Shown: positions 24,037-63,274 of the stretch, piece after piece | How the letters are laid out: every line of letters starts with the position of its first letter | Position numbering within the stretch: the first letter of the stretch is position 1 | DNA from: an uncultured Actinomycetes bacterium | Lineage (GTDB): Bacteria > Actinomycetota > Coriobacteriia > Anaerosomatales > Anaerosomataceae | Reading direction: 5' to 3' | Assembly: GCA_963700295.1 (NCBI GenBank) | Contig: CAVOWY010000005.1 | Span: forward strand, 17,405 to 81,404 | Length of the DNA stretch: 64,000 nt | Notes under the pieces: model-generated | What the model was told of the DNA's origin: nothing | The model's input: only the letters and a program-made list of their open reading frames with translations | Database searches by the model: none | Position numbers and translations under genes: made by a program

Positions 24037-24040
24037 GGCC

Positions 24041-24754: not shown

Positions 24755-24872
24755 GTGCCTGCGCAAACGTCGGCGACGTGCCAGCGGACACTCAATGATA
24801 GCAGGGGGCGCACCGTGGCCGCTCAGGCGTCAGCGTGCCGTTGCATGTCCAACGAGCGCGAGAGGTCTGCCG

Positions 24873-37687: not shown

Positions 37688-38462
37688 TTAGCTGAAGCTC
37701 TGGCATAGTTTGCACTCCACACAGGCGTCGTAACCGTGGCTGGATATCTCTTCGATCAGGTCGAGCGGGTTGCCCTTGCAGGCAAGCCGGCCGCTGTAGA
37801 GCACGTGCGCCACGTCGGCGTTCACGAACTCCAGGATGTGGCCGGTGTGGGTGATGATGAGGCCGGCGCGGGTGCGCTCGGAGATGCGCTCCTCGCCCTT
37901 GAGCAGCGCGTTCATGGCGCTGCCGACGACCGCGATGTTGTCGAGGTCCACGCCGCTCTCGGGCTCGTCGAACAGCGCGAGCTCGGGCATCTGTGCGAGC
38001 AGCTGGGCCATCTCGGAGCGCTTGGCCTCGCCGCCGGAGAAGCCCATGTTCACGTCGCGCTCGAGCATGTGGCCGAGATTGAGGTCCTCGTCGAGGGCGG
38101 CGACCGTGTCGTCTGTGAGCTCTCCGCGCGCCGCCACTTCGATCAGCTGGCGCAGCTTAACGCCGCGGACCGCTGGCGGACGCTGGAACGCGATGCCGAT
38201 GCCCATGCGGGCGCGCTCGTCGATCGTCGAGGTCGGCAAGGTCCATGCCCTTGAAGAGGATGCGGCCCTTGGTCACCTGGTAGCCGGGCATGCCGACGAT
38301 CGTGTTGAGCAGAGTCGACTTGCCACCGCCGTTAGGGCCGAGCAGGACGTGGGTCTCGCCCTCGTTGATGGTGAGATCGACGCCGCGCAGGATCTCACGG
38401 TCGCCAACGGAGACGTGCAGGTCTTCGATCTGCAGCAGGGGTACGGGCTTCTCTGAGGCCAT
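37688..38462 (-). pseudogene. sufC: SufC-type ABC ATPase split by one frameshift near 38230
   Basis: Walker A LLGPNGGGKST in ORF 38157-38462; Q-loop and signature FSGGEAKR in ORF 37688-38239. Confidence 0.7.
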
Positions 38463-38616
38463 CGGTCACCTCGGTTCACTGGTCGTGGGGTCTGACAGGT
38501 CATACTACCCCTAAGCGGGGAGGAGATGCGGCATAACTGTAGCAGTATGCACGCCAACGTTATACCCCTAGGGGGTATACCTCAACCGACACCGGGCGAG
38601 CCGAGGGAGGCGAGTG

Positions 38617-43072: not shown

Positions 43073-43899
43073 ATGACGACCGTCGCCATTCCTCGGGCCC
43101 GCAGGGACGTTCAGCGAGGTGGCGGCTGCTCTCGCTCGGGCTGCCCGACGTGGAGCCGCTGCCATGCGTGACCATCGCCGAGGTGTTCGAGGCCGTGGAG
43201 CGCGGCAAGGCCGATGTCGGCGTGGTGCCGATCGAGAACTCGATCGAGGGCTCGGTGGTGGCGACGCTCGACGCGCTCGTGTTCGACTACGACGCTCGAG
43301 ATCCAGCGCGAACTCGTGCTCGACATCCACTTCTCGCTCGTGGCGGCGCCGGGCACGAAGCTGGCCGACGTCACCTCGGTGGTCGCGCATCCGCAGGCGG
43401 GCGGGCAGTGCCGCCGGTGGCTGGAGCGGAACCTGCCCGGTCGCCCGGTCGCGGCCGCGAACAGCAACGCCGAGGCGGTGCAGACGGCGGTCGGCAGCCC
43501 GGGCGTGGCCGCGCTCGGGACCGGCACTCGCCGCCGAGCTCTACGGCGCCGAGATCCTCGAAGAGGGCGTCGCAGGACTACGCGGGCAACCAGACGCGTT
43601 TCGTGGTGCTCGGCCGGGGCCTGCAGCCGCGCACCGGCCACGACAAGACGTCGCTCGCGCTGTTCATGAAGAAGGACAAGCCGGGCGCGCTCCTGATGAT
43701 CCTCTCCGAGTTCGCCTACGGCGACATCAACCTCACGAAGATCCAGAGCCGGCCCACCAAGCGCCAGCTGGGCGACTACATGTTCTTCGTCGACCTCGAG
43801 GGCCACGTGGACGACCCGCACGTGCGCCTCGCGCTCGACTGCCTGCGCCTGAAGCTGCGCGAAGTGAAGGTCCTCGGCAGCTACCCCGTCGCGCAGTAG
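43073..43899 (+). pseudogene. pheA: Prephenate dehydratase (PDT plus ACT domain) broken by at least 4 frameshifts
   Basis: MTTVAIPGPAGTF.., VGVVPIENSIEGSV.., TRF motif, and an ACT domain (LALFMKKDKPGALL..) spread over three frames. RBS GAGGAGG. Confidence 0.65.
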
Positions 43900-43999: not shown

Positions 44000-45281
44000 A
44001 TGAGCGATCAGGCGGTCGACTACCACCCGATGTGGGCCGAGCTCGGACTCGACCTGCCCACCCACGATGCGCTGCTCGGTGCGGTCGGACAGCTCTTCGG
44101 CGACGCGTACCTCACGCAGGAGAACCGCCCCGAGGGCATGGACTACCTCAACTTCGTGATGAGCGAGGTCCACGGCCTGCGCATCAAGGAGCTCGACGAC
44201 TTCCGCAAGTCCGGCGGCAAGGTATTCGGCACGTTCTGCCTGTACGTGCCCGAGGAGATCATCCGCGCGGCAGGCGGCTGGTGCGTGGGCCTGTGTGCCG
44301 GCGCCGAGTTCGGCTACGACCAGGTCGAGCAGATCATGCCGCGCAACACCTGCGCGCTCATCAAGGCATCGATGGGCTTCAAGCTCGCGCAAGGTGTGCC
44401 CGTACATCGAGTCGGCGGACCTCGTGATCGGCGAGACCACGTGCGACGGCAAGAAGAAGGCGTACGAGCTGCTCGGCGAACTCCACAACACGTGGGTGAT
44501 GGAGCTGCCGCAGATGAAGCGGCCCGAGGACGTCGCGATGTGGAAGGCCGAGATTCGCGAGCTGGTGAAGAAGGCCGAGGAGCTCACCGGCAACACCATC
44601 ACCGCCGAGAGCCTGCGCGCGTCGATCAAGGAAGTGAACGACAAGCGTCGCGCGCTGCAGCGCATCGCCGCGGCGTGCAAGGCCGCCCCGGCGCCGATCA
44701 GCGGCAAGGATCGTCTGCTCGCCACCCAGGTGGCCTTCTACGACGACGTCCCGCGCTTCACCACGATGATGAACGCGCTCGCAGACGAGCTCGAGGACCG
44801 CGTGGCTGCGGGCGAGGGCGTGGCTCCCAAAGAAGCGAAGCGCGTGCTCGTGACCGGTACGCCGATGGCGCTGCCGAACTGGAAGCTCCACGACATCATC
44901 GAGAAGGCGGGTGCCGTGGTGGTGGCCGAGGAGATGTGCACCGGCAGCCGCTACTACTCGCAGCTGGTTACCGAAGACGGCGCCTCGCTCGACGAGATGC
45001 TCGACGACATCGCCGAGAAGTACCTCGACATCAACTGCGCGTGCTTCACGCCCAACAAGGGCCGCATCGACGACGTGGTGCGCATGGCCAAGGAGTACGG
45101 CGCGGACGGCGTCATCGACTACTCGCTCCAGTTCTGCGGCCTCTACGAGATGGAGAGTCACGGCGTGGAGGCAGCCGTCCGCGAGGCAGGGCTGCCGGTG
45201 CTGAAGATCACCACCGACTACTCGATGGAAGACGTGGGCCAGCTCGCCACGCGCGTCGAGGCTTTCCTCGAGATGCTCTAG
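44000..45281 (+). pseudogene. HGD-D-family 2-hydroxyacyl-CoA dehydratase / double-cubane-cluster-type protein, with one frameshift near 44390
   Basis: N-terminal part in ORF 43973 and the remainder in ORF 44295. IGETTCDGKKK motif. Paralog of the gene at 52240-53418. Confidence 0.7.
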
Positions 45282-45285
45282 GCGC

Positions 45286-46032
45286 ATGCGGGTCCTCGGA
45301 CTGGATATCGGTTCCCGGAGCGTGGATGCGGTCTGGCTCGAAGATGGCCGGATCGTGGACTGGGCGGTGGCCGACTCGGGTTTCGACCCCGGGTCGGCCG
45401 CGGCCGTCTTCGTCGATCGTGGCGTGCACGATGCGATCGTCTCCACAGGCTACGGCCGCCATGCGGCCAAGGAGCGCTTCGGCGGGTCGGCGGTGACCGA
45501 GATCACCGCATACGGACTTGGCGCGTGGGCGCTGTTCCCCGAGGCGGCCTCGGTGCTCGACATCGGCGGCCAGGACACCAAGGTGATCTCGCTCGGGCAC
45601 TGCGGCCGCGTGGTGGATTTTGAGATGAACGACAAGTGCGCGGCCGGCACCGGCAAGTTCCTCGAAGTGATGGCCCGCGCGCTCGGCTACACGCTGGAGG
45701 AGATGGCCGACGAGGCACTTGCCGCCGAGAGCGGTGTGGCGATCTCGAGCATGTGCACGGTGTTCGCCGAGAGCGAGGTCACCGGGCTCGTGCATCGCGG
45801 CGAGGACCGCGCTCGCATCGCCCGCGGGCTGCACGACGCGATCGCCAAGCGCACGCTCGGCTCGCTCAAGCGGGTCAACGCCCAGGGGCCGCTGGTGTTC
45901 GCCGGCGGCGTGGCCAAGAACCCGGCGATGGTGGCACTGATCACCGGGGGATTCACGGGCGACGTGTGCGTGCCCGCAGAGGCGCAGATCGTGGGCGCGT
46001 ACGGGGCGGCGCTGTCCGCGGCCGAGGGGTGA
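45286..46032 (+). CDS. HgdC/BadF/BcrAD-type ATPase activator (ASKHA fold)
   Basis: LGLDIGSRSVDAV, DIGGQDTK, C(x)AAGTGKF (cluster-binding Cys) motifs. Confidence 0.85.
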   Translation: MRVLGLDIGSRSVDAVWLEDGRIVDWAVADSGFDPGSAAAVFVDRGVHDAIVSTGYGRHAAKERFGGSAVTEITAYGLGAWALFPEAASVLDIGGQDTKVISLGHCGRVVDFEMNDKCAAGTGKFLEVMARALGYTLEEMADEALAAESGVAISSMCTVFAESEVTGLVHRGEDRARIARGLHDAIAKRTLGSLKRVNAQGPLVFAGGVAKNPAMVALITGGFTGDVCVPAEAQIVGAYGAALSAAEG

Positions 46033-46038
46033 GGCCGG

Positions 46039-46308
46039 GTGTCCGGGGAGCGCGCGATCCTGATCGAGTTCGTCAACACATGACCGAGCTGTGACGAGTA
46101 CGCACGGATCGTGCGTGAGGTCGCTTCGAGATACGAGGGGAGGGTCGAGGTGCGAATCTACCAGGCCGGGCGTGACATGGCGTACCTAGCCAAGTATGGG
46201 CCCGTGATGCGCGGGACCCTCATCATCGACGAACGCATCCGCCTCGAGCATCTCACGCGACCGATCATCGAGGATGCGATCGCGCGTGCGGTCGAGGACG
46301 CCTCGTGA
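46039..46308 (+). CDS. Thioredoxin-like small protein (redox-active disulfide protein 2 type) with an in-frame TGA at the first redox Cys: UxxC selenoprotein candidate
   Basis: GTG 46039 (RBS GAGG) reads MSGERAILIEFVNT-[TGA 46081-83]-PSCDEYARIV..KYGPVMRGTLIIDER... The supplied ORF 46111-46308 is the same frame downstream of the TGA. Hairpin ACGCAC-GGATC-GTGCGT at 46100-46116, 15 nt after the TGA. Confidence 0.5.
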
Positions 46309-47393
46309 GCTTCCTCAGAGACACGCTTGCGGGCACCTGGCTGGTGCTAGCCGATGCCGCACCCTGGCTGCTGGTGAGCTACGTGCTCGCCGGCCTGATG
46401 CACGAGTTCGTGAGTCCGGAGCGGCTCCAGGCGCACCTCGGCAACAAGCGCCTGTCGTCGATTGTGAAAGCCACGTTCTCGGGCATGCTGCTGCCGATGT
46501 GCAGCTGCGGCGCGATTCCGCTCGGCCTGAGCCTGTACTACTCCGGTGCATACCTGGGGCCGGCCCTCGCGTTCATGGTCGCCGCCCCGATGATCAACCC
46601 TGCAGCCATCTTGCTGACTTACAGCCTGCTCGGCCCGCAGATCGCCACGATCTACGTCATCGGTGGCATCCTGATCCCGATCATCGTCGGCCTGATCGCC
46701 AACGCGCTCGGTGGTGAGCAACTGTACGCACAGGGCGTCGATGAGGTGTCGCGTGTGCAGCTGGCCGCGGCGCAGGGTACGCCGCTCAGGGATCGGCTGC
46801 GAGCCGGCCTCAGCTACGGGTTCGGCGACCTGGGCGTGGTCGTGAGCAAATACGTGGTGATCGGCGCGATTTCGGCCGGGGTTCTGTTCGCGCTCATCCC
46901 TGACACGTTCATCGATCGATACCTGGGCGACCCAGGGTTGCTGTCGCTCTTCGGCGTGAGCGTTCTCGGGGCGACCATGTATGTCTGCGCAGTCGGCCAT
47001 ATCCCGTTCATCGCAGCGATCGTGGCGGCCGGGGCGGCGCCCGGAACCGCGATTACGTTCCTGATGGCCGGCGCCGCCACCAACGTGCCCGAGTTCATCA
47101 TGATCTCGAAGCTCATCGGAAAGCGCACGGCCCTCTTCTACTCCGTGGTGGTCGTGTTCTTCGCTCTGGCGGCAGGTTGGTTCGCCAATGCCCTGATCGG
47201 GGACGGGTTCGTGCCGTTCATAGACCCGGAGCGCAGCGCCGGAACGATCGCGATCGCCAACTGGTTCATCATCACGGTCCCGCCCTGGCTTCAGGTGCTG
47301 AGCGCCGTCGCGGTCGTTGGTCTGGGGCTCCTCGCCTATCGGGGCAGGCTCACCGCGCTGTTCGCGCGCGTCCCTGCGGGGGCCGAGTCATGA
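46305..47393 (+). CDS. COG0701-type permease with a CxC motif (ArsP-like)
   Basis: LLPMCSCGAIPL motif, ~9 TM. GTG overlaps the stop of the thioredoxin-like gene, suggesting translational coupling. Confidence 0.8.
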   Translation: MSFLRDTLAGTWLVLADAAPWLLVSYVLAGLMHEFVSPERLQAHLGNKRLSSIVKATFSGMLLPMCSCGAIPLGLSLYYSGAYLGPALAFMVAAPMINPAAILLTYSLLGPQIATIYVIGGILIPIIVGLIANALGGEQLYAQGVDEVSRVQLAAAQGTPLRDRLRAGLSYGFGDLGVVVSKYVVIGAISAGVLFALIPDTFIDRYLGDPGLLSLFGVSVLGATMYVCAVGHIPFIAAIVAAGAAPGTAITFLMAGAATNVPEFIMISKLIGKRTALFYSVVVVFFALAAGWFANALIGDGFVPFIDPERSAGTIAIANWFIITVPPWLQVLSAVAVVGLGLLAYRGRLTALFARVPAGAES

Positions 47394-47881
47394 AGCGGAT
47401 CGCCGTGATCGCCGCCACGCTGGCCGCGCTCGTGCTGGCCGGATGCGCGCCTGAGACTGCCGCCGAGACCGTGACCACCGTGCCGGAGTCCAACGCGCTT
47501 GTGAACTGGTACGTGGGGCAGCACGCGGACACCCGCGTCGTTGCTTCGGCGCTCGGCGACGTCACCGCGGACGGCACCGATGACCTGGTCGTCATCTACC
47601 AGAAGGCTGACGACGAGGACCGGCGTTGGATGCGCGTGGTCGTTGGGGGCGACGAGCCGACCGCGACCGACGAGGTGCCGGCCCCTGTAGAGAACCAGCG
47701 CATCGACTTCCGCGACATCGACGAGCAAGCCCCCATTGAGTTCGTCATCCGGGGATCGAAAGCGGGCAACGTGGGCTTCGCGATCTTCCGGGTGACCGAC
47801 GGGAAGCTCGAGAACGTCTTCGGCGAGGACATGGATCGCTGCTGCGAAGCGCAGCCGCGCGTGACGCACCAAGCGTCCTAA
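47390..47881 (+). CDS. Hypothetical lipoprotein
   Basis: Lipobox LAGC. ATGA overlap with the permease stop. Confidence 0.5.
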   Translation: MKRIAVIAATLAALVLAGCAPETAAETVTTVPESNALVNWYVGQHADTRVVASALGDVTADGTDDLVVIYQKADDEDRRWMRVVVGGDEPTATDEVPAPVENQRIDFRDIDEQAPIEFVIRGSKAGNVGFAIFRVTDGKLENVFGEDMDRCCEAQPRVTHQAS

Positions 47882-47941
47882 AGGGTTCATCGGCGGATGG
47901 CGCCGTGCAGCACGTATGTATACCGAACAGGGAGGGAATGC

Positions 47942-49072
47942 ATGGACAGGTTCGGACGGGTGATCGCGCTGCTGCTGGCAGTGGTGCTCATCGCAGGGAT
48001 GGTCGCTGGTTGTGCGGTTGAGGACACGACGACCGGTGAGACGACCGAGGAGGAAGCGGTCGACGACTACACGGTCAAGCTCGGCTACTACAACTGCGAC
48101 CACATGCTCGCATCGGTCGTGGCGAACGACGCCGGCATCTTCGAGGAGATGGGCCTCGACGTCGAGCTCACCGGCAACGGCAACGTGCCCGAGGCGATGG
48201 CCGCCGGTCAGATGGACGTGGGCTACATCGGCACGGAGGGTCTGATCAAGGCGCGGGAGAAGGGATCGCCCATTTTCGTGGCTGCGTGCAATCACGTGGG
48301 TGGCTCGTTCTACCTCGTGGCCTCGAATGACATCAAGACCAAGGAGGACCTTGTCGGCAAGGAGCTTGGCCTTGCTCCGGACATCGACAAGACCGACGCC
48401 TACTGGGTACGCATCGCGAAGAACACCGGCATCCCGGTGGAGGCGAGCAACTACCAGCCGTACGCCATGGAGATCAAGGACCAGTTCCTCGCACTCACCG
48501 CCGGGCAGATCGACGGCTACGTGACCTGTGATCCGTGGGGCTCCGCTGCGGTCGTGGATGGCGTGGGCTGGATCGTCGGCGACGACACGCACATCCCGGG
48601 CACCGATGAGTACGGTGTGTGCTGCTCCTACGCGATGAACGAGGACTTCGCTGCCGAGCATCCCGAGCTTGCGGTGAAGATGGTGCAGGCGCACGCCAAG
48701 GCGATCCAGTACACATACGAGCACCCGGCCAAGGCCGCGAAGATCTTCGCCGAGAACTACGGCGTCAAAGACGAGGTCGCACTCATGACCATCTGGCACA
48801 AGCTCATCGCCGATGGACGCACGCTGACCTGGAAGATCGACGAGGAGCTCTACCAGAACGAGGTCGACTATGCGATCGAGGTCGGCACCATGGACTTCAC
48901 GCCATCGCTCGACGACTTCGTCAAGACCGACATCTACGACCAGGCCGAACTGGCTGACTTTGACGCGTTCATCGCAGACGAGGTCGACTCGGTCATGCCG
49001 CTCGACATGAGCTACGAGGACTTCAAGGCCTATGCGCTCGAGACTGACCGCGACTCCGGGCTTGAGCTCTAG
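47942..49072 (+). CDS. ABC transporter substrate-binding lipoprotein (NMT1/SsuA/TauA-like)
   Basis: Lipobox VAGC, RBS GGGAGGG, NMT1-like sequence. Confidence 0.75.
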   Translation: MDRFGRVIALLLAVVLIAGMVAGCAVEDTTTGETTEEEAVDDYTVKLGYYNCDHMLASVVANDAGIFEEMGLDVELTGNGNVPEAMAAGQMDVGYIGTEGLIKAREKGSPIFVAACNHVGGSFYLVASNDIKTKEDLVGKELGLAPDIDKTDAYWVRIAKNTGIPVEASNYQPYAMEIKDQFLALTAGQIDGYVTCDPWGSAAVVDGVGWIVGDDTHIPGTDEYGVCCSYAMNEDFAAEHPELAVKMVQAHAKAIQYTYEHPAKAAKIFAENYGVKDEVALMTIWHKLIADGRTLTWKIDEELYQNEVDYAIEVGTMDFTPSLDDFVKTDIYDQAELADFDAFIADEVDSVMPLDMSYEDFKAYALETDRDSGLEL

Positions 49073-49137
49073 CCGTACTCCAGAGCAGGAAGGAGCCGAG
49101 GCGGGGCGCCGCGCAGGCGGCGCTCCGCCCGTCCCCG

Positions 49138-49947
49138 ATGAAACGACTCGCACGCAGTGTGCTGGTGGTAGCGACGGTCCTTACTGTGGTCGTCTTGGTT
49201 CTTGTCGCCTCGTCGGCCTCACGTATCGACGAGTCCGGCGAGGGCGCCACAATCAACCTCGGCACGCCCGCTGACTCGGCGGGACTGCTAGGTAGCGTGC
49301 TGGATGGCGTCAGCGTGAACGGCGGGAGCGAGATCGTCGCCTACCCGCTCAAGGACTGCTGCACTACCAAGACCGAGTATGCGCTGTCGGTGGACTTGCT
49401 CGACGCGGCGCTTCTCTGTCCCGATGCGGCCGAGCGTCTTGTCGAGCGGGATGCGCGGTACGTGCGCGTGGGAGCTGTGGTGATGAACTCGGATGTGCTT
49501 GTGGCTCGCGGGGACGGTCAGCCGATCGTGGTCGTGGCGGTCGGTGTGAACCGGGACTATCAGGTGCAGATCGCACGGGAGCAGTGGGGTGCGGCCATCG
49601 ATGTGCGGCCAACGCTTTCCTCGGTGATCTCGCTGGCGGTGGCCGATGGTGAGGTCGACGCTGCGGTGGTCGATCTGCTGGATGCGCGTGCGCTCGTCAC
49701 CACGGGATCGGACGTGACTCCTGTCGAAGGCGACGTGGTCTCGTACGAACTCGTGGTGACGCGCGACTTCGCGGTGAGCGACGAATACGCGACCTTTCTC
49801 GACCAGATGGGCGATGCGGCCGAGAGCCTCAATCGCGCTGAGGTCTTCAGCTCGACGGTCCGTTCCTGGACGGGGACGGCGATGACGAAGGAGGAGGTGG
49901 ACCTGTGGAGAGACTCGAAGATGTGCTTCGTGAGGCCGAGCCCCTGA
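49138..49947 (+). CDS. Hypothetical secreted protein, possibly a degenerate substrate-binding-like protein
   Basis: N-terminal TM/signal segment only. Confidence 0.35.
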   Translation: MKRLARSVLVVATVLTVVVLVLVASSASRIDESGEGATINLGTPADSAGLLGSVLDGVSVNGGSEIVAYPLKDCCTTKTEYALSVDLLDAALLCPDAAERLVERDARYVRVGAVVMNSDVLVARGDGQPIVVVAVGVNRDYQVQIAREQWGAAIDVRPTLSSVISLAVADGEVDAAVVDLLDARALVTTGSDVTPVEGDVVSYELVVTRDFAVSDEYATFLDQMGDAAESLNRAEVFSSTVRSWTGTAMTKEEVDLWRDSKMCFVRPSP

Positions 49948-50736
49948 CGGCGCCGCCCGTGTCCGCAGCGCGCGGCGGCGTGCTCGGGTGGTTGAGCAGA
50001 CAGCAGTGGCTCATCTCGATCGCAGCGATCTTGATAGTGTGGCAGTTCGCCGCGGCGCACTATGACGCGGAGATCGATCCTGCCCTACCCGGTGGCGACC
50101 CTGAAGGCGCTCGCCTTTGCCTTTGTGGACGCCGAAACGCTCATCAATCTCGCCATCACCGTGCGAAGGGTGCTGATCGGCTTCGTCTGGGCCCTCGGCA
50201 TCGGTATCCCACTTGGTATGGCGATGGGCTCCTCCAAGACGATCAGGCGGCTCGTGGGTCCCATCGCGGACTCCGTGCGACAGGTCCCGATCATGGCGTG
50301 GGTCCCGCTCACGATCGTGTGGTTCGGTCTTGGGGACGGGCCCACGGTATTCCTCATCGCCATGGTCGGCCTGTTCCCGGTCCTGCTCTCGACGATCGCA
50401 GGCGTGGACAGCATCTCGAAGGACTACTACAACGCCGCGCGCAGCATGGGGGCGAACCGCTCGAGCGTGATACGTAACGTGGTGATTCCTGCGGCGATGC
50501 CGGACGTTCTGACCGGCATGAGGCTCGCGCTCTCGGCCGGCTGGATGTCCGTCATTTGAGCAGAGTTCATAGCGACGAGTGCAGGTTTCGGGTACTCGAT
50601 GGTAAGGGCGCAGACGATGATGCAGACCGACCGGCTGGTCGCGCTGATGATCATGGCCGCCCTGATAGGATTCTCGATCGATCGGCTGCTGTTGATGGTC
50701 AACCGGCGGCTCGCGCCGTGGAGGTTCGCGGCGTGA
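49905..50736 (+). pseudogene. ABC permease (SsuC/TauC-like) with one frameshift near 50060 and an in-frame TGA at 50557-50559
   Basis: N-terminus in ORF 49905, the core in ORF 50062, and the protein continues in the same frame after the TGA (AEFIATSAGFGY...). Confidence 0.6.
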
Positions 50737-51521
50737 GGCGTCTGTGCATCGATAGCCTGTCCAAGGAGTTCACCGGTCGGGGTGGCACGCACCGCGTCCT
50801 CGACAACGTGTCACTGTGCGTCGAGCCCGGTGAGTTCGTGACCCTGCTCGGGCCGTCGGGATGCGGCAAGACGACGCTCCTCACGATCGTTGCGGGATTC
50901 CAGTCGGCCACCAGCGGGCGCGTGTCGCTCGACGGCATGGCGCTCGACGGGCCTGGTCCGGACCGCGGCTTCGTGTTCCAGGACTACGCGCTCTTTCCGT
51001 GGATGACGGTGCGCGACAACATCCTGTTCCCGATGCAGCAGGTGGGAATGGATCCGCCAGATCAGGAGCGCAGACTCACCGAGCTGCTCACGATGTCGCA
51101 CCTGGCCGGCAGGGAGCACCTCTACCCCCATCAACTGTCGGGCGGCATGAAGCAGCGGACGGCGTTCGTGCGGGCCCTCGCAACGCGGCCAGAGGTGCTC
51201 TTGATGGACGAACCTCTCGGCGCGCTCGACTACCAGATGCGCATCCGGCTGCAGGCCGAGCTCGAAGCCATCTTCTGCGCCGAGCGAACGACGATTCTCA
51301 TGGTCACGCACGACGTGGAAGAAGCCGTCTACCTGAGCGATCGCGTTGTGGTGATGGCACTCGGCGGCGGCCACGTCGTCGCCGACGTCCGTATCGACAT
51401 GGAGCGTCCGCGGCACCGGCGAAGCGAGGCCTACCACCGCTACAAGGACGACCTGATGGAAGCGCTTGAAGTGGCGATGGGACCAGCGGGCGACAACGGC
51501 ACCACCGGATTCATCGCGTGA
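50733..51521 (+). CDS. ABC transporter ATP-binding protein (SsuB/TauB-like)
   Basis: GPSGCGKTT (Walker A), LSGGMKQR, LLMDEP. GTG overlaps the permease stop. Confidence 0.8.
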   Translation: MRRLCIDSLSKEFTGRGGTHRVLDNVSLCVEPGEFVTLLGPSGCGKTTLLTIVAGFQSATSGRVSLDGMALDGPGPDRGFVFQDYALFPWMTVRDNILFPMQQVGMDPPDQERRLTELLTMSHLAGREHLYPHQLSGGMKQRTAFVRALATRPEVLLMDEPLGALDYQMRIRLQAELEAIFCAERTTILMVTHDVEEAVYLSDRVVVMALGGGHVVADVRIDMERPRHRRSEAYHRYKDDLMEALEVAMGPAGDNGTTGFIA

Positions 51522-51537: not shown

Positions 51538-52209
51538 ATGCATACGTTCAAGGACTACCCGACCGAACAGCTGCTGATCGACAGCCTGTGGTCCCGGATG
51601 ACGCCCACTGAGCGGGAGTTCCGGATCGAGGTGCTCAACGCGATCATCGGCGCCGGCGGACCTGTGGGGCCGGCAGACGTGGCATGGGTCGCCGAGGACC
51701 ATGGTGGCGCCTCGGCAGCGGACCTGTTCGATGCGATCGCCGCGAAGCATGTGATCGTAGTAAGCGACGGGCTCGTGCAGTTCGCCTACCCCCTCTCCGC
51801 CCTCGCCACCAATCACACCGTGCACCTCGCCGATGGCCGCTCGTTCAGTGCCATGTGCGCGATCGACGCGATGGGCTCGGCGCTCACGCTCGGACAGAAC
51901 ACGGTGGTGGAGGACAAGTGCAGCGTGTGCGGCACGCCGATCACCGTGCGGGTCGTGAACGGCGCGCTGGCGAGTGTGGATCCTCCCACCGCACACGCGA
52001 TCCACGCGGACCTGTCGGGGACGGGAGAGGACTGGGCCGCCAGCTGTTGAAACGTCATGAACTTCTTCTGTACGAAGAAGCATTTTGAGGAGTGGCGTGA
52101 CGCATCGGGAACCAGCATGGACGGGTTGTTCATCCTTGATGCGGAAGACGCATTCAAGGCCGCCGACATCGTGTTCGGCCGACATGAGGAGCGTGCGACG
52201 GGGAAGTGA
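51538..52209 (+). CDS. merB: Organomercurial lyase (MerB) homolog with an in-frame TGA at the position of catalytic Cys159/Cys160: selenoprotein candidate
   Basis: RBS GGGAGG. SAMCAIDAMG matches MerB AWCALDTLI (Cys96/Asp99). CSVCGTPITV matches CAATGAPVSL. ...AASC-[TGA 52048-50]-NVMNFFCTKKHFEEW continues in the same frame and matches MerB SFCCHVHFFASVPTAEDW. Hairpin CTTCTTC-TGTAC-GAAGAAG at 52062-52080, 11 nt after the TGA. Confidence 0.55.
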
Positions 52210-52239: not shown

Positions 52240-53418
52240 CTAGATCATCTGCTCCACGAACGCCTCGATGCGCGTGCGCAGCTGGCCGAGGTCCGACTCG
52301 GAGTAATCGGTCTCGAGCTTGAGGTACGGCAGCTTGAGGACGTCTCGCGTGTAGCGCCCCACCTCTACCGACTCAACGTTGAAGGTGTGGCAGCTCTGCC
52401 AGACGGTGTCGATGACGCCGTCCACGCGGTAGTCGACCACGCAGCGACCGAGGAGCTCGGTGCGCCCGTTGTTCGGGCTCATGCATGCGCACGGGATGCC
52501 GAGCGTGTGGCGTGCGAGCGCCTCGAACGGATCGCCGTCCTCGTCGATCACGCGGTCGTACATCTTGATGCCGCTGCACGCGTCGTGACACACGACGTGT
52601 GCCCCCGCCTCTTCGGCGAGGCGCATGACCTTGTTCGTCTCCGGTGCCATGGGCGTGCCGGTGACCAAGATGCGCGGCCGGGCCGGAGCGGTCCGGGACT
52701 CGGCACGCCGCGCCGCGGACTCCTCCTCGAGCACTGAGATCAGTTCGCGCAGCTTCTCGTGGTAGGGCTCTTCGTCCACGAGGAAGCCTCCGCCGTCTTG
52801 CACGGTGAGCATCTGGGTCCAGGTCATCGGGGGCTCGTCTTCGGCGAAGAACGAGGCCACCTTCCGAAGGAGCGCAGCGCACTCGTTGGACTCGCGGATC
52901 GCGGCGCGCAGCGATTCCGTGGTGATCGTGCCGCCGGTGGCCTCCTCGACGAACGCAGCAACCCCGCGGATCTCGCTGAGCCACCAGGAGAACGCCGGCT
53001 CAGCACCGTCGCCGCCCGCAAACGGGAGCTGCATCACGTGAACCGGTTTGAGCGCGCGAAGCAGCTCGAAGACCTTCTTCTTGCCATCGCACGTGGTCTC
53101 GCCGATGAGCGCGTCGGAGAAATGGAAGAACGGACAGGTGTCGGTGATCGCGAGACCATACGACGACTTGATGAGCGGGCAGAAGGCCCGGGGGAGATCT
53201 ACTTCCGCCGCGGAGATGGCGTTGTTGTCATTCCCGCACAGCGAGACGGGTATGGCGCCGGCAGCGCGAACGAGTTCGGCCGGCATGAAGCCGCAATAGA
53301 GGCCAACCACTTTCCGGCCGTCGTCCTTCGCGTGCTTGAAGTCGACTCGCGCCCAGTCCGCCATCTCGGCGAACTCCTCCACCAGCGCCGCGATACGCTC
53401 GTTGCCCCCATCCGGCAT
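52240..53418 (-). CDS. HGD-D-family 2-hydroxyacyl-CoA dehydratase / double-cubane-cluster-type protein (intact paralog)
   Basis: IGETTCDGKKK plus conserved Cys positions. 392 aa. Confidence 0.8.
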   Translation of the reverse strand: MPDGGNERIAALVEEFAEMADWARVDFKHAKDDGRKVVGLYCGFMPAELVRAAGAIPVSLCGNDNNAISAAEVDLPRAFCPLIKSSYGLAITDTCPFFHFSDALIGETTCDGKKKVFELLRALKPVHVMQLPFAGGDGAEPAFSWWLSEIRGVAAFVEEATGGTITTESLRAAIRESNECAALLRKVASFFAEDEPPMTWTQMLTVQDGGGFLVDEEPYHEKLRELISVLEEESAARRAESRTAPARPRILVTGTPMAPETNKVMRLAEEAGAHVVCHDACSGIKMYDRVIDEDGDPFEALARHTLGIPCACMSPNNGRTELLGRCVVDYRVDGVIDTVWQSCHTFNVESVEVGRYTRDVLKLPYLKLETDYSESDLGQLRTRIEAFVEQMI

Positions 53419-53525
53419 GAGCCGTCCCCCTGTCTCGACGTGTCATATTGTTTGCTGATTGTATCAATCAGCGATGTAGATATAAACTCGGGGTGCGCAC
53501 CAGCTTCGCCCCGGCAGGAGTGCTC

Positions 53526-54164
53526 ATGAGCGACATGATCCAGATGATGAAGTCCTTCCTCGCCGACTGGCGACGTTACGGCAAGGACGCCAGGAAGCAC
53601 GACGCGTGGATTCGCAAGCATGCCCGTAATCGCGGGTGGAGCGTGAACTCCCGCTGGATGATCTACACGAACCTCAAGCTGTGGATCGCCGACTCGGAGG
53701 CGATGTACGGGCGACGCTACTGTCCGTGCTACGAACCTTCGGGCGACCCTGACCTCGACCGCAGCCTCATCTGTCCCTGCCAGTTCGCGCAGGAGGAGAT
53801 CGACACGACGGGTTGGTGCCACTGCACGCTCTTCGGGCGGGGCGACCTCACCCCTGCGGACTTCAAGCGCGCCGAGGACCAGCTCATGAAGGAGTATCGC
53901 GGCACCCCCCTCAAGCTCGTCGAGGGCGTGCTCGATACGCGCGGCCAGCACATCGATGTCTTGCGCGGCATCCCCGTACCCGATGCGATCCACCAGGTGA
54001 AGCGGGCGATCGGAGCCGTCGGTCTGCCGCTCGAGGTGATCGTTGCCACCAAGCCCGAGGGGGAGCACCTGCTCCGACTTGCCGAGATGCGCGGGCTTTC
54101 CGCCAACCTGGAGGAGCACGACGACCACTTTCGGGTCATGCTCACGCCGGGTTCGGTCGGCTAG
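53526..54164 (+). CDS. Ferredoxin:thioredoxin reductase catalytic-subunit-like domain (CPC..CPC..CHC) fused to a ~110-aa C-terminal domain of unknown function
   Basis: YCPCYEPSGDPDLDRSLICPCQFAQEEIDTTGWCHCTLF matches the FTR beta-subunit 4Fe-4S/disulfide motif. RBS GGCAGGAG. Confidence 0.7.
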   Translation: MSDMIQMMKSFLADWRRYGKDARKHDAWIRKHARNRGWSVNSRWMIYTNLKLWIADSEAMYGRRYCPCYEPSGDPDLDRSLICPCQFAQEEIDTTGWCHCTLFGRGDLTPADFKRAEDQLMKEYRGTPLKLVEGVLDTRGQHIDVLRGIPVPDAIHQVKRAIGAVGLPLEVIVATKPEGEHLLRLAEMRGLSANLEEHDDHFRVMLTPGSVG

Positions 54165-59507: not shown

Positions 59508-59552
59508 GCCGAGACGGGCGAGTTCGAGGGGAGCTGGGATGAGGTCCGAAGG

Positions 59553-61214
59553 GTGCGGCTGCAGCCGCTTGCTGTGACTGCGGCGCTGGTGGCCGCAGTG
59601 GTCGTGCTGACGGCGCCAGCGGCGGCCTATGGCGCGTTCGCCGAGCAGGTGGCGAGACTGCACGCGTACGATGCGGCAACCAACGACTTCTACGGGCACG
59701 TAGTGGACATCGATGGCGACACGGCGGTGGTGGGTTCCCCCTGGGATGACTCGGAGCGAGGATCCGTCTACGTCTACACGCGCAGTGCTGCCGGATGGGC
59801 GTTCCAGCAGAAGCTGACAGCGCCGGTTCGCGCCGTGGGGGATCACTTTGGCTTCTCCGCGGCGGTGTCCGGCGACGTGGTCGTGGTAGGCGCACCAGGG
59901 CGAACGGTCAGCGCCCAGGGCGCCGCGGGATCAATCTACATCTACCGACGTGTCGGAGGTATCTGGCAGGCCCCCACCATCGTGAACAACCCGGCTGCGC
60001 AGGCAGGCGAGCACTACGGGTGGTCGGTCGACATCGACGGCACCACGATGGTTGTCGGGGAGCCCGAATCGAGCGGCACCATCTACGGACCACATCACGG
60101 CTTCGCGCGAGTGTACGGATGGAACGGGGCGTCCTGGGCGCTGCAGGCGGGCCTCGAGGACACCGAGGTGGATGGCTCCGGTGCGCTTCTCGGCTGGGAT
60201 GTCGCCGTATCAGGCACCACTGTGATCACCGGCTGTCCGGCCGAGGACTCGGGCCGGGAATCCGTGAGTGTGTGGGGTTGGAACGGCGCGACCTGGATTT
60301 ACAAGCAGAAGCTGCAGGTTGCGGGCGGAGCGGCGAGCGACCAGTTCGGACAGTCGGTCGACATCTCGGGCAACACGCTCGTGGGCGGTGCGCCAGGACG
60401 AGACCTGATGACCGGGATGGATGCTGGCGCGGCGTACGTGTACGTGAACCCCGGAGACGCATGGGAGTGGCAGGCGTCGCTCATCTCCCCGGACCCGAGC
60501 GAGTACAAGGGCTTTGGTTCGGGCGTGGGCATCGATGGCAACACGCTCGCGATCGGCGAGTGGCAGGGCTCGGCGGGTGCTGGTGCAGCGCATTTCTACC
60601 GGCGAAGCGGCACACTCTGGCCACGCGTGCAGTCCACGGACATGTCGGCGGCCGATCCGGCGGTGCGCATGTTCGGCTGCTCGACCGCGGTGAGTAACGG
60701 CACGATCATCATCGGCTCGTACCTGGCCAGCAGCGCCACGGTGACCGAGCCGGGTGGCGCCTTCATCTACTCGCACCTTGAGCCCGTCTATCGCTTCTAC
60801 AAGCCGAGTGGGGGCACGCACTTCTACACCCCGTCGACCGAGGAGCGCGACCACGTGCTGGCCACCTGGCCGAGCATCTTCTCCTACGAAGGGGTCGTGT
60901 ACAAGACGAATCCCGAGAACAACCCGCAGCCGCTCTACCGCTTCTTCAATCACACGAACGGCAGTCACTTCTACACGGCGTCGCTCGTTGAGGCGGATCA
61001 TGTGATTGCCACATGGCCGAGTGTCTTCACGTACGAGGGGCAGACGTACGCGGTCACTCCGTGGCCGTGCGCCGGGCCGACCGTGTACCGCTTCTACAAC
61101 CTGAAGAACGGCAGTCACTTCTACACAGCCTCTGCCGAAGAGGCCGACATGGTTATCGCAACGTGGCCGACGGTGTACCGTTACGAGGGGCCAGTATTCT
61201 GGCTTGGGCAGTAG
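59553..61214 (+). CDS. Paralogous secreted FG-GAP-repeat protein with three C-terminal YRFYN repeats
   Basis: Same architecture as the preceding gene; start approximate. Confidence 0.7.
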   Translation: MRLQPLAVTAALVAAVVVLTAPAAAYGAFAEQVARLHAYDAATNDFYGHVVDIDGDTAVVGSPWDDSERGSVYVYTRSAAGWAFQQKLTAPVRAVGDHFGFSAAVSGDVVVVGAPGRTVSAQGAAGSIYIYRRVGGIWQAPTIVNNPAAQAGEHYGWSVDIDGTTMVVGEPESSGTIYGPHHGFARVYGWNGASWALQAGLEDTEVDGSGALLGWDVAVSGTTVITGCPAEDSGRESVSVWGWNGATWIYKQKLQVAGGAASDQFGQSVDISGNTLVGGAPGRDLMTGMDAGAAYVYVNPGDAWEWQASLISPDPSEYKGFGSGVGIDGNTLAIGEWQGSAGAGAAHFYRRSGTLWPRVQSTDMSAADPAVRMFGCSTAVSNGTIIIGSYLASSATVTEPGGAFIYSHLEPVYRFYKPSGGTHFYTPSTEERDHVLATWPSIFSYEGVVYKTNPENNPQPLYRFFNHTNGSHFYTASLVEADHVIATWPSVFTYEGQTYAVTPWPCAGPTVYRFYNLKNGSHFYTASAEEADMVIATWPTVYRYEGPVFWLGQ

Positions 61215-61252
61215 GGGTGCGGGCGGGGAGCTCGCTCGGAGGGAGTCGTGGC

Positions 61253-63274
61253 ATGAGACGTCATTGGGTGACCCGGTGTGTAACGATCGCGACCGGAGCG
61301 CTGGTGCTTGCCACGGTGGTGCCGCTTGCGGTGCCGACCGCGATGGCCGGTTCGGCTCCATTCGCGGTCGACGAGGACATCATCTACGCGCCAACGCCTG
61401 TGGATCAGGAGCACTTCGGAAGCGCGGTTGCGCTCGACGGCGACACGCTCGTGGTGGGCGTGCCCGATCACGACTCTCTCGCAGGGCCTCAGGACATCGG
61501 CGTCGCGTACGTCTACGTGAAGTCGGGCACCGACTGGGTCCTCCAGGCCACGCTCCAGCAGCCCTCTCCGGGTGACGGCGACAAGTTCGGCACCGCAGTA
61601 GGGATTTCGGGCAACCGCATCGTCGTGGGTGCGCCATATCGCACCACCGCCCACGGGGAGTGCGGTGCAGCCTATGTCTTCACGCGCACCGGCACCGCAT
61701 GGTCTGCCGCAGTCTCGCTTCCGATGGAACTCGAGCAAGACGGCGACCAGGCCGGGCAGTCGGTGGACATCGAGGGCGACACCGTCGTGGTGGGCTGTCC
61801 GGGGCGCGGCAGCTCGCGCGGGGCGGTCCGCCCGATTGTGTGGAACGGCAGCAGCTGGGACTCGGGCGGGGGCATCACGCTCACAGACCCCACCTCGGCC
61901 ACGGGAGACCGCCTCGGCACGTGCGTGTCGCTCTCGGGCAACACGGTGCTTGCATCCGCGGGTGGTGACGATGTGGGCACGGTGGCGGCGATCGTGGACG
62001 CGGGCAGCGTGCTGTCGTTCACGCGCAGCGGCACGACGTGGTCGTTCGAGCAGAAGTGGCAGGCGCCCACGCCGGTAGCCGACGAGCAGTTCGGCGGCCC
62101 GATCGACCTGCAGGCGAACGGCTACGTGGCTGTCGTCGGCTCGCCCGCTCATGACGTAGGTACCGAGAACGAGCAGGGCATCGCGTACGTGTACGCGCGC
62201 GGCACGAGCGGTTGGGTGCTCACCGCCACGCTCGACAACCCCGGCCCCAACTCGCCGGACGGCGACTGGTTCGGCTCGGCGGTGGCCTTCGACGGTCACA
62301 ACCTGATCCTCATCGGCGCCTTCTGGGACGACAGCCACACCGGCGCGGCGTACTACTTCCAGTACCGCGAGGGCGAGTGGGTGATGGCGCAGAAAGTGAC
62401 GCCGCCTGTGGTCCCGTGTTGCGCGCTCTTTGGTGACTCGGCGGCACTCGACGGCGGCATCGCGATGGTCGGTGCGACGCTGGCGTCTACAGGTTGAAGC
62501 GGCCAGCAGGGCGCAGTTTACGCCTACAACAGCAACGCGACGATCACCGGCACCTGCTACGACGCGCTGACGGGGCTCCCGCTCTCGGGCGTGGAGGTCT
62601 CGGCATACTACCCCGACGTGTGGGGAGACCCGGAACTCGAGCAGTACGTCACCACAGGCGCTGACGGCAGGTACACGCTCACGGTCGACTCAGGCGAGTA
62701 CTACCTCGGCACGATGGGGCCAAGCTCGCTCTACCAGGCTGGCTGGTACAACCACGCGAGCGGCTGGACGGATGCCGACCCCTGGACGTTCTGGGCGGGC
62801 ACGAGCACCACGATCGACTTCACCATCCACCGGAAGGCGCCGGTCTTCCGGTTCTTCAACAAGCTCAACAACACGCATTTCTTCACCGACTCGATCGCCG
62901 AGCGCGACCACGTGATCGCGACCTGGCCGGGTGTGTACGACTACGAGGGCATCGCCTACTACACAAGCCCGAATACCGACCTGCAGCCGCTGTACCGCTT
63001 CTACAACACGCGATCGAGCAGCCACTTCTACACGGCGTCGGCCGACGAGCGGAATCGTGTGATCGCAACGTGGCCGACCATCTTCAACTACGACGGTCCC
63101 ACCTATCGCGTCTCGGCGGCACCGGACTACGGGAGGTCTCCTGTCTACCGCTTCTACAACGTGCGAAATGGCAGCCACTTCTACACGGCGAGTCTCGATG
63201 AAGCGAACCACGTGATCGTCACGTGGCCAGACGTGTACCAGTTCGAGGGCCCGGCATTCTGGATCGGACAGTAA
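61253..63274 (+). CDS. Paralogous secreted FG-GAP-repeat protein with an in-frame TGA at 62495-62497 and four C-terminal repeats
   Basis: RBS GGAGGGAG. ORFs 61013-62497 and 62591-63274 are in the same frame, separated only by the TGA. Confidence 0.6.

What the first reader, a model, noticed from the sequence alone, without database searches (positions are those of the whole stretch)
46039..46308. Thioredoxin-like protein with an in-frame TGA at the first redox Cys, followed by a SECIS-like hairpin
From GTG 46039 the frame reads ILIEFVNT-TGA-PSC-DEY..., which aligns with the G-x-G-C-x-x-C start of small 'redox-active disulfide protein 2' thioredoxins; the tail (KYGPVMRGTLIIDER) also matches that family. 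The TGA therefore sits at the first Cys of the CxxC motif, giving UxxC. A 7-8 bp stem-loop (ACGCAC GGATC GTGCGT, 46100-46116) starts 15 nt downstream, where bacterial SECIS elements lie. A stop codon landing by chance exactly on the redox Cys is unlikely. The gene is translationally coupled (GTGA overlap) to a CxC permease and sits in a redox cluster.
Basis: partly seen in the sequence, partly recalled or inferred. Interest (0 to 1): 0.8.

Follow-up and report, generated by a model that had tools for sequence, protein, structure and literature searches.

The report
Known selenoprotein SaoT in SAO operon
The in-frame TGA is real and almost certainly encodes selenocysteine, but the gene is SaoT, a thioredoxin-like selenoprotein family described in 2022, sitting in a complete "SAO" operon of an uncultured actinobacterium, so this is a new member of a known kind.

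Summary
Window 46039-46308 (+) reads VSGERAILIEFVNT-TGA-PSCDEY...EDAS, and an 8-bp hairpin starts 15 nt after the TGA.

With U read as C, the protein matches NCBIfam NF040730, "thioredoxin-like (seleno)protein SaoT", at 116 bits (cutoff 65). The gene opens a complete SAO (Selenocysteine-Assisted Organometallic) locus, saoT-E-C-X-B-P-A-L, flanked by two double-cubane reductases and an activase (Haft & Gwadz 2022). Their supplementary alignment already shows the same NTUPSCDEYAR form.

- **TGA position:** in 87 SaoT homologues recovered from related loci, the window's TGA aligns with the first Cys or Sec of the motif (CPCC, CPSC, UPSC).
- **Not an error:** an independent assembly has the identical TGA, and five related Actinomycetota lineages keep TGA, the upstream peptide and the hairpin.
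- **Hairpin goes with Sec:** Sec forms fold downstream of the codon and Cys forms do not (p = 3.6e-9).
- **Two more Sec codons:** the same operon has TGAs at published Sec sites in SaoP (50557) and SaoL (52048).

The Sec machinery (selA, selB, selC, selD) is not in the window and could not be tested. Function is inferred: a selenol/thiol partner of the efflux permease SaoE, probably binding a metal. Interest is low to moderate.

The parts
44000..45281 (+). Double-cubane-cluster anaerobic reductase (DCCP1), frame-shifted in this assembly near 44392
   Evidence: NF040772 393 bits for 44295-45281, with the N-terminus in another frame. tblastn with relatives' proteins switches frame at 44391-44401. 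The window has one extra G compared with L005.
45286..46032 (+). Acyl-CoA dehydratase/double-cubane activase (BcrAD_BadFG ATPase)
   Evidence: TIGR00241 203 bits; PF01869.
46039..46308 (+). saoT: 89-codon thioredoxin-like selenoprotein gene with motif U15-P-S-C18
   Evidence: NF040730 116.2 bits against a cutoff of 65. Aligned with 87 homologues. The family profile hits MJ0307/1FO5.
46081..46083 (+). In-frame TGA read as selenocysteine (codon 15)
   Evidence: Identical in the independent Logan assembly L001. Conserved in L002-L006 and L008. Aligns with the first Cys of the CxxC motif.
46091..46124 (+). SECIS-like stem-loop (core 46099-46117: 8 bp, GAU loop; lower helix 46091-46095 with 46120-46124)
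   Evidence: Folds. 94% of cells in the upper helix stay paired across 6 clade sequences. The arms use rare codons GCA (10.7% of Ala) and CGT (9.7% of Arg). Sec forms are structured and Cys forms are not.
46305..47393 (+). saoE: ArsP_1-type efflux permease with a CSC motif. Its start overlaps the saoT stop (GTGA).
   Evidence: NF040736 457.5 bits against a cutoff of 325; PF03773.
47390..47881 (+). saoC: lipoprotein with a Cys-Cys motif, followed here by an 11-residue tail. Its start overlaps the saoE stop (ATGA).
   Evidence: NF040734 146 bits against a cutoff of 80. The tail is shared by clade relatives.
47942..49072 (+). saoX: ABC substrate-binding lipoprotein
   Evidence: NF040735 470 bits against a cutoff of 300.
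49138..49947 (+). saoB: ABC substrate-binding protein, Cys-Cys form (PLKDCCTTKT)
   Evidence: NF040727 188 bits against a cutoff of 140. The motif aligns with CU forms in other genomes.
49905..50736 (+). saoP: ABC permease selenoprotein with the Sec codon at 50557-50559 (WMSVI-U-AEFI). A 1-nt insertion at 50076 breaks the frame in this assembly.
   Evidence: NF040733 361 bits against a cutoff of 295. 57 of 78 homologues have U at this site. The indel is seen against L001. Hairpin at 50576-50598.
50733..51521 (+). saoA: ABC ATP-binding subunit
   Evidence: NF040729 378 bits against a cutoff of 360. GTGA overlap with the saoP stop.
51538..52209 (+). saoL: MerB-like lyase selenoprotein with a CU motif; Sec codon at 52048-52050
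   Evidence: NF040728 138.3 bits against a cutoff of 140, so just under. CUN in 50 of 51 homologues. Hairpin CUUCUUC-uguac-GAAGAAG at 52062-52080, with a compensatory change in L004.
52240..53442 (-). Second double-cubane-cluster reductase (DCCP2)
   Evidence: NF040772 445 bits against a cutoff of 350.
53527..54164 (+). FtrB-like (ferredoxin-thioredoxin-reductase catalytic subunit-like) protein, all-Cys form, with an extra C-terminal domain
   Evidence: Partial hit to NF041072, 52 bits, below the 160 cutoff. Sequence. Relatives L002 and L004 carry a FeThRed_B gene between the activase and saoT.

Best explanation
Window 46039-46308 is saoT, the thioredoxin-like selenoprotein gene of a SAO (Selenocysteine-Assisted Organometallic) locus, in an uncultured high-G+C actinobacterium.

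**Decoding.** UGA at codon 15 is read as selenocysteine. The stem-loop that starts 15 nt downstream acts as the bacterial SECIS, recruiting SelB.GTP.Sec-tRNA(Sec) to the ribosome. The UGA at codon 90 has no hairpin at that spacing and terminates translation. The codon, the hairpin and their conservation are shown here. SelB binding and selenium incorporation are inferred.

**Product.** The protein is 89 residues, a minimal thioredoxin fold carrying U15-P-S-C18 at the position of the thioredoxin CxxC motif.

**Function (inferred, untested).** saoT is translationally coupled to saoE (GTGA overlap) and then to saoC (ATGA overlap). The family replaces the thioredoxin cis-proline with Gly or Ser and often adds a third Cys or a Sec. 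I therefore think SaoT most likely uses its selenolate/thiolate pair to bind a soft metal or organometal species and pass it to the Cys-Ser-Cys site of the efflux permease SaoE, or else to keep that site reduced. It would not be a general protein-disulfide reductase.
For: **Identity**
- NF040730 scores 116 bits against a cutoff of 65.
- Every other Sao model matches the downstream genes above its cutoff, except SaoL at 138.3 against 140.
- Two NF040772 double-cubane proteins and an activase flank the locus. The describing paper reports this arrangement for 40% of SAO species.

**Sec rather than stop**
1. The TGA aligns with the first Cys or Sec in 87 homologues: CPCC 22, CAUC 19, UPSC 13 and others. 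It also aligns with the CPHC of 1FO5.
2. Logan contig L001, assembled from run ERR11561443, is identical to the window over 45652-50075, TGA included.
3. L002, L004, L005, L006 and L008 keep the TGA. The eight codons before it differ almost only at synonymous or conservative sites (aca/act/acc; ctg/ttg/ctc).
4. The hairpin is retained in the clade, with 94% of cells paired. It is built from rare codons GCA and CGT.
5. Across the family, Sec forms are structured at +10 to +48 and Cys forms are not: median z -1.66 and -1.49 against +0.42, Mann-Whitney p = 3.6e-9.
6. Two further in-frame TGAs in the same operon fall on published Sec sites, in SaoP and SaoL. Each is followed by a hairpin at +14 to +19. 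The SaoL hairpin shows a compensatory U-A to C-G change in L004, accompanied by amino-acid changes.
7. TGA is also the ordinary stop of the activase gene, saoT, saoE, saoB, saoP and saoL, so the code is not reassigned.

**Function**
- The gene overlaps are shown.
- The cis-Pro position is Gly in 51, Ser in 29 and Ala in 1 of 81 distinct SaoT sequences, and never Pro.
- The thioredoxin cis-Pro is thought to prevent metal binding by the CxxC motif (PMC2757866, citing Su et al. 2007).
- Haft & Gwadz argue for metal interaction from the CPCC overload and the CSC motif of SaoE.
Against: - No selA, selB, selD or tRNA-Sec was found in the 64-kb window or in the relatives' 20-kb loci. The rest of the genome could not be searched.
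- Single-sequence folding is only modestly better than shuffles, z -1.1 to -1.7.
- Within the actinobacterial clade the SaoT hairpin shows only one-sided changes and no compensatory covariation. Its arms lie in conserved codons, so part of the conservation may be at the protein level.
- My perfect-stem search found no hairpin in several other UxxC SaoT genes, such as the Tissierella group.
- The assembly carries frameshifts in neighbouring genes, so its base-level quality is imperfect.
- No experiment exists for any SAO protein in the literature I could search.
Confidence: 0.88

Rival explanations
1. The TGA is a sequencing or assembly error, or a nonsense mutation in a decaying gene. Either nothing functional is made, or only the 65-residue C-terminal fragment from GTG 46111, which is what automatic gene callers annotate.
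For: - All nine database homologues are annotated as 50-66-residue fragments starting after the TGA.
- The window carries frame disruptions in nearby genes: DCCP1 near 44392, LarC near 40330 and SaoP at 50076.
Against: - The same TGA is present in an independent assembly and in five related lineages at 57-92% SaoE identity.
- It is also present in UPSC genes of Firmicutes such as L011, L018, L050 and L080.
- The 14 upstream codons are conserved as protein, with synonymous nucleotide changes.
- The errors seen in this assembly are 1-nt insertions, not substitutions.
- No Shine-Dalgarno-like motif precedes GTG 46111, whereas GAGG precedes GTG 46039.
- The truncated fragments are a known annotation artefact for this family.
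Confidence: 0.03
2. The UGA is decoded, but not as selenocysteine. It would be read by near-cognate read-through or by a reassigned code as Cys, Trp or Gly, in a genome without Sec machinery.
For: Sec machinery was not seen in the window.
Against: - TGA serves as the normal stop of at least six genes in this locus.
- Three UGAs sit exactly at family-specific Sec positions, each followed by a hairpin at SECIS spacing.
- According to the describing paper, every SAO-bearing species examined has the selenocysteine trait.
Confidence: 0.02
3. The gene is the selenoprotein SaoT, but it works as a conventional thiol/selenol-disulfide oxidoreductase. For example, it could pass electrons from the neighbouring FtrB-like reductase to the double-cubane enzymes or to SaoE, rather than acting as a metal-binding chaperone.
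For: - The UxxC motif lies at the thioredoxin active-site position and there is homology to MJ0307. MJ0307 has thioredoxin-like activity according to Haft & Gwadz.
- An FtrB-like gene is in the locus. In L002 and L004 it lies directly upstream of saoT.
- Sec in UxxC redox motifs is typical of catalytic redox selenoproteins.
Against: - The family never has the cis-Pro of thioredoxin-fold oxidoreductases (0 of 81).
- The commonest form is the unusual CPCC motif.
- saoT is invariably adjacent to, and here overlaps, the metal-type efflux permease gene saoE.
Confidence: 0.3

Closest known systems
SaoT (NCBIfam NF040730, 'CxCC_doxin'), the CD2368-family thioredoxin-like (seleno)protein of the SAO system (Haft & Gwadz, bioRxiv 10.1101/2022.07.06.499078; J Bacteriol 2023)
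   Same: - Length of about 85-89 residues.
- HMM score well above the cutoff.
- A UxxC motif identical to published members (NTUPSCDEYAR).
- Position directly upstream of saoE, followed by saoC-X-B-P-A-L.
- Neighbouring double-cubane proteins and activase.
- Public gene calls truncated at the UGA.
   Different: - The host is an uncultured Actinomycetota lineage at 67% G+C. The paper's text and supplements never mention actinobacteria.
- No saoD gene was seen in the locus.
- In this clade SaoC carries a tail after its CC motif.
- saoB is the CC form.
MJ0307 (PDB 1FO5) / Pfam Thioredoxin_3 / TIGR00412 'redox-active disulfide protein 2' minimal thioredoxins
   Same: A minimal thioredoxin-like sequence of about 85 residues. 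The CxxC motif is at the same aligned position.
   Different: - Sec replaces the N-terminal Cys.
- The cis-Pro is replaced by Gly or Ser.
- The Pfam score is below its gathering cutoff, and there is no TIGR00412 hit.
- It is always paired with a metal-type permease.
Other UxxC thioredoxin-fold selenoproteins of bacteria (Trx-like, redoxin, DsbA-like, AhpD-like and others, catalogued in PMC13188914)
   Same: Sec sits at the nucleophilic position of a CxxC-type motif. The SECIS lies within the coding sequence just downstream of the UGA.
   Different: Those are stand-alone or peroxiredoxin-linked redox proteins. SaoT is one component of a multi-selenoprotein transport and organometal operon.
ArsP / SO_0444-type permeases (Pfam PF03773) with a vicinal Cys motif, which are often encoded beside small thioredoxin-like proteins
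   Same: SaoE is PF03773 with a conserved C-S-C motif. Its second-best NCBIfam hit is the SO_0444 Cu/Zn efflux family. That ArsP exports trivalent organoarsenicals through a vicinal Cys pair is from my own knowledge and was not checked here.
   Different: SaoE reaches only the SaoE-specific cutoff (457 against 325), not the SO_0444 one (198 against 300). Its substrate is unknown.

Membership tests
SaoT (NF040730) | Matches the curated equivalog HMM above its cutoff | tested here: met
   116.2 bits against a cutoff of 65, covering profile positions 3-82 of 83.
SaoT (NF040730) | Cys or Sec at the CxxC-equivalent motif (UxxC, CxUC, CxCC or CxxC forms) | tested here: met
   The window has UPSC. 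The TGA aligns with the first C or U in 87 homologues. The same motif appears in published Supplementary Figure 4.
SaoT (NF040730) | Encoded within a SAO cassette next to saoE | tested here: met
   SaoE, C, X, B, P and A are all above their cutoffs, and SaoL scores 138.3 against 140. A SaoT homologue was recovered from almost all of the fetched loci, in most of them directly upstream of saoE.
SaoT (NF040730) | Genome has a double-cubane protein (NF040772) | tested here: met
   Two copies flank the locus, at 393 and 445 bits.
Bacterial selenoprotein gene | In-frame UGA aligned with Cys in homologues, with conserved coding sequence on both sides | tested here: met
Bacterial selenoprotein gene | SECIS stem-loop shortly downstream of the UGA with a G-containing apical loop | tested here: met
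   An 8-bp stem starts at +18 with a GAU loop. It is retained in the clade. Sec forms are structured and Cys forms are not. There is no compensatory covariation within the clade.
Bacterial selenoprotein gene | selA, selB, selC (tRNA-Sec) and selD present in the genome | not testable with these tools
   None were found in the 64-kb window or in the relatives' loci.
Bacterial selenoprotein gene | Selenium actually incorporated into the protein | not testable with these tools
   Needs 75Se labelling or mass spectrometry.
Thioredoxin-fold CxxC oxidoreductases (Trx / MJ0307 / Pfam Thioredoxin_3) | Pfam PF13192 above its gathering score | tested here: not met
   20.7 bits against 24.8.
Thioredoxin-fold CxxC oxidoreductases (Trx / MJ0307 / Pfam Thioredoxin_3) | CxxC motif at the thioredoxin active-site position | tested here: met
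   The family profile aligns tCpcC with MCPHC of 1FO5, E = 7e-5.
Thioredoxin-fold CxxC oxidoreductases (Trx / MJ0307 / Pfam Thioredoxin_3) | Conserved cis-proline before strand beta-3 | tested here: not met
   The aligned position (V-P-T in 1FO5) is Gly in 51, Ser in 29 and Ala in 1 of 81 distinct sequences, with no Pro. This rests on sequence alignment only; no structure model was obtainable.
   There was no hit at E <= 0.01 in the NCBIfam scan. Only NF040730 and a weak TrxA hit were returned.

The most novel reading that the evidence does not exclude
The actinobacterial SAO loci may form a distinct variant of the system:
- three Sec codons (SaoT, SaoP, SaoL);
- no saoD in the locus;
- SaoC whose Cys-Cys motif is internal rather than C-terminal;
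- an FtrB-like reductase inside the locus.

In this variant the cis-Pro-less SaoT would act as a selenol metallochaperone for SaoE. Because saoE and saoC are translationally coupled to a gene with UGA at codon 15, selenium supply would also gate expression of the efflux arm. That would contradict the published assumption that SaoE expression does not depend on selenium.
Probability: 0.2. Interest if true: 0.45.

Novelty: new member of a known kind. Interest (0 to 1): 0.25.

Why it matters
**Annotation.** Public gene calls for this protein and its eight closest relatives are all truncated fragments of 50-66 residues. SaoP and SaoL in the same operon are split at their UGA codons in the same way.

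**Taxonomic range.** The SAO system, whose chemistry is still unknown, extends into uncultured high-G+C Actinomycetota. The describing paper does not mention this phylum.

**A lead on mechanism.** The universal loss of the thioredoxin cis-proline in SaoT is a small, testable clue that SaoT binds metal rather than reducing disulfides.

None of this changes what is known about selenoproteins. The family, its UxxC form and its operon were all published in 2022-2023.

Tried and rejected
- **Rfam scan of the window:** only two ordinary tRNAs were found, with no SECIS family and no tRNA-Sec. ARAGORN gave the same result and also found nothing in seven related loci.
- **Pfam and NCBIfam scans of about 40 window ORFs for selA, selB and selD:** none found.
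- **Structure prediction:** There is therefore no fold model and no fold search.
- **Cluster look-up to name the source assembly:** no accession was returned. The source is known only as an NCBI/ENA contig of 149,141 bp plus Logan run ERR11561443.
- **Covariation test of the SaoT hairpin within the actinobacterial clade:** pairing is kept, but with no two-sided changes and no excess over shuffles, so it does not count as covariation evidence.
- **Perfect-stem hairpin search:** it fails for several non-actinobacterial UxxC SaoT genes and for most SaoP genes. Those appear to need bulged or imperfect helices, which I did not model.
- **TIGR00412 membership:** rejected.
- **Published J Bacteriol version (PMC9879109):** not held, so the preprint was used instead.
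- **Literature search for experimental work on SAO proteins:** nothing found beyond the describing paper and a review.
- **Initial suspicion that prephenate dehydratase (43096-43893) is frame-shifted:** rejected, because tblastn gives a single frame.

Full report
**1. The observation**

From GTG 46039 the + strand reads VSGERAILIEFVNT-TGA-PSCDEYARIVREVASRYEGRVEVRIYQAGRDMAYLAKYGPVMRGTLIIDERIRLEHLTRPIIEDAIARAVEDAS-TGA. The internal TGA is at 46081-46083. The terminal TGA (46306-46308) overlaps the GTG start of the next gene, and a GAGG motif lies 4 nt before GTG 46039.

Its arms are 46099-46106 and 46110-46117, giving 8 bp including one G.U pair, with a GAU loop. It begins 15 nt after the TGA and can extend by a 5-bp lower helix.

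On its own the fold is unremarkable for 67% G+C DNA, with z -1.1 to -1.7. A hairpin of this type follows only about 3% of TGA triplets or random positions in the window (the criteria were chosen after I had seen the hairpins).

**2. What it is**

With U replaced by C, the 89-residue protein matches NCBIfam NF040730, "thioredoxin-like (seleno)protein SaoT", at 116 bits (cutoff 65). The downstream gene matches NF040736, "efflux transporter SaoE", at 457 bits.

Reading TGA as U across 46-53.5 kb and scanning the products shows a complete SAO locus:

| Gene | Coordinates | Notes |
|---|---|---|
| saoT | 46039-46308 | UPSC motif, Sec codon at 46081 |
| saoE | 46305-47393 | CSC-motif permease |
| saoC | 47390-47881 | CC motif plus 11-residue tail |
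| saoX | 47942-49072 | |
| saoB | 49138-49947 | CC form |
| saoP | 49905-50736 | TGA at 50557, WMSVI-U-AEFI |
| saoA | 50733-51521 | |
| saoL | 51538-52209 | TGA at 52048, SC-U-N |

Each gene scores above its curated cutoff except SaoL, at 138.3 against 140.

The neighbours fit too. Upstream lie a double-cubane reductase (44000-45281) and its activase (45286-46032). Downstream lie a second double-cubane reductase (52240-53442, minus strand) and an FtrB-like protein (53527-54164).

This is the system named by Haft & Gwadz (bioRxiv 10.1101/2022.07.06.499078). They report SaoT as a selenoprotein in 65% of members, with motifs UPTC, CAUC, CPTC and CPCC. Their Supplementary Figure 4 already shows NTUPSCDEYAR, identical to the window. 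[quoted passage not shown]

**3. Is the TGA a selenocysteine codon?**

Seven lines of evidence support this.

(a) *Alignment.* I fetched 80 loci with a SaoE alignment and found a SaoT homologue in almost all of them, in most cases directly upstream of saoE. In 87 hits the window's TGA aligns with the first Cys or Sec: CPCC 22, CAUC 19, UPSC 13, CPSC 4 and others. A profile of the family hits the solved thioredoxin MJ0307 (1FO5, E = 7e-5), with the motif aligned to its CPHC.

(b) *Not an assembly error.* Logan contig L001, from run ERR11561443, is base-for-base identical to window 45652-50075, TGA included.

(c) *Conservation in relatives.* Five related lineages keep the TGA: L002/L003, L004, L005, L006 and L008, at 57-92% SaoE identity. 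The codons before it change almost only synonymously or conservatively, so the N-terminal 14 codons are translated in frame with the rest.

(d) *The hairpin.* It is retained in these lineages, with 94% of cells paired and only wobble-compatible one-sided changes. It uses the rare codons GCA (10.7% of Ala codons) and CGT (9.7% of Arg codons).

(e) *Sec forms against Cys forms.* Across the family, Sec forms carry structure at +10 to +48 and Cys forms do not: median z -1.66 and -1.49 against +0.42, Mann-Whitney p = 3.6e-9. The sequences are not phylogenetically independent. In CxUC forms the hairpin shifts along with the TGA, and the stem sequence varies widely.

(f) *Two more Sec codons.* The TGAs in SaoP and SaoL fall on the published Sec positions. 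U is found at that site in 57 of 78 SaoP homologues, and CU in 50 of 51 SaoL homologues. Each TGA is followed by a hairpin. The SaoL hairpin shows a compensatory U-A to C-G change in L004 together with amino-acid replacements.

(g) *TGA is still a stop codon.* It is the ordinary stop of six genes in the locus, which excludes a reassigned code.

**4. What could not be shown**

No tRNA-Sec, selA, selB or selD lies in the window or in the relatives' 20-kb pieces. The rest of the genome was out of reach.

Selenium incorporation and SelB binding are inferences from the established bacterial mechanism. In that mechanism SelB.GTP.Sec-tRNA(Sec) binds the apical part of a hairpin just 3' of the UGA.

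**5. How it most likely works**

*Decoding* proceeds as described in section 4. *Function* is inferred from four observations.

- saoT, saoE and saoC are linked by GTGA and ATGA overlaps.
- SaoE is an ArsP_1-type permease with an invariant Cys-Ser-Cys motif.
- The SaoT family favours an overloaded CPCC motif or a Sec form.
- At the position aligned with the thioredoxin cis-proline (V-P-T in 1FO5), SaoT has Gly 51, Ser 29, Ala 1 and never Pro.

The cis-proline is more conserved across thioredoxin-fold groups than the CxxC motif itself, and is thought to prevent metal binding by it (PMC2757866, citing Su et al. 2007).

I therefore favour SaoT as a selenolate/thiolate carrier that hands a soft metal or organometal species to SaoE. 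The main rival is an ordinary oxidoreductase role, fed by the FtrB-like protein of the locus.

**6. Source organism and assembly quality**

The window is 67% G+C and carries the FhaA/FHA/PP2C/RodA-PBP cluster (19788-24829). By SaoE identity its nearest relatives are MAGs labelled Actinobacteria or Actinomycetota. One is labelled "Eubacteriales" despite 68% G+C. The SAO paper's text and supplements do not mention actinobacteria.

The assembly has single-base frame disruptions in three nearby genes:
- DCCP1, an extra G near 44392 compared with L005;
- LarC, near 40330;
- SaoP, an extra G at 50076 compared with L001.

These are insertions and do not affect the TGA argument.

**7. Verdict**

The object is a new member of an already described selenoprotein family in an already described operon.

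What it adds is a corrected annotation, an extension of the SAO system to Actinomycetota, and the cis-proline clue to function. Interest is low to moderate, at 0.25.

Noticed in passing
window 50557-50559 and 52048-52050: Two further in-frame TGAs sit at published Sec positions in the same operon: SaoP (WMSVI-U-AEFI) and SaoL (WAASC-U-NVMN). Each is followed by a hairpin, at 50576-50598 and 52062-52080.
   Followed up: yes
window 50076; ~44392; ~40330: Single-base frame disruptions relative to otherwise identical or closely related sequences. There is an extra G in saoP compared with Logan contig L001 and an extra G in DCCP1 compared with L005. LarC is split between two frames. These look like assembly indel errors or very recent pseudogenisation.
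   Followed up: partly
window 37688-38465 (-) and 59508-63274 (+): More possible frame breaks. A SufC-like ATPase ORF matches only profile positions 55-135 of ABC_tran, and a neighbouring ORF lies in another frame. The FG-GAP/DUF5648 genes overlap in different frames near 60992-61214. They also have an in-frame TGA at 62495-62497 inside a repeat unit, with no Cys homologue, so it is not Sec-like.
   Followed up: no
window 47846-47881; L005, L006, L008: SaoC is defined as a 'Cys-Cys-COOH' protein, but here the CC is followed by 11 more residues (EAQPRVTHQAS). Clade relatives also carry short tails (CCQAP, CCDSR, CCDS). In this actinobacterial clade the CC is therefore not C-terminal.
   Followed up: partly
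SaoT residue 59 (window 46213-46215) and all 81 distinct homologues: The position aligned with the thioredoxin cis-proline is Gly, Ser or Ala and never Pro across the SaoT family. This is a possible mark of metal binding rather than disulfide exchange.
   Followed up: partly
window 53527-54164: An FtrB-like protein with CPC...CPC...CHC motifs (all-Cys form) has a weak partial hit to the 'FtrB family double-selenoprotein' model, plus an extra C-terminal domain of about 90 residues. In L002 and L004 a FeThRed_B gene sits between the activase and saoT instead.
   Followed up: no
L002 15268-15573; L004 15511-15747 and 17629-17910: Relatives carry a small PASTA-domain ORF between saoA and saoL. L004 also has a Se_S_carrier (PF11823) gene just beyond the second double-cubane gene. 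Neither is present at the corresponding place in the window.
   Followed up: no
L002 and L004 saoP; L041 and L045 saoT and saoP: Sec and Cys interchange among close relatives. SaoP is Cys in L002 and L004 but Sec in the window, L005 and L008. SaoT is CPHC in two other Actinomycetota MAGs, whose SaoL still has CU.
   Followed up: partly
window 11992-14922: A DUF362 protein, a multi-4Fe-4S ferredoxin-domain protein and a TusA-like sulfurtransferase lie in a row, about 30 kb from the SAO locus.
   Followed up: no
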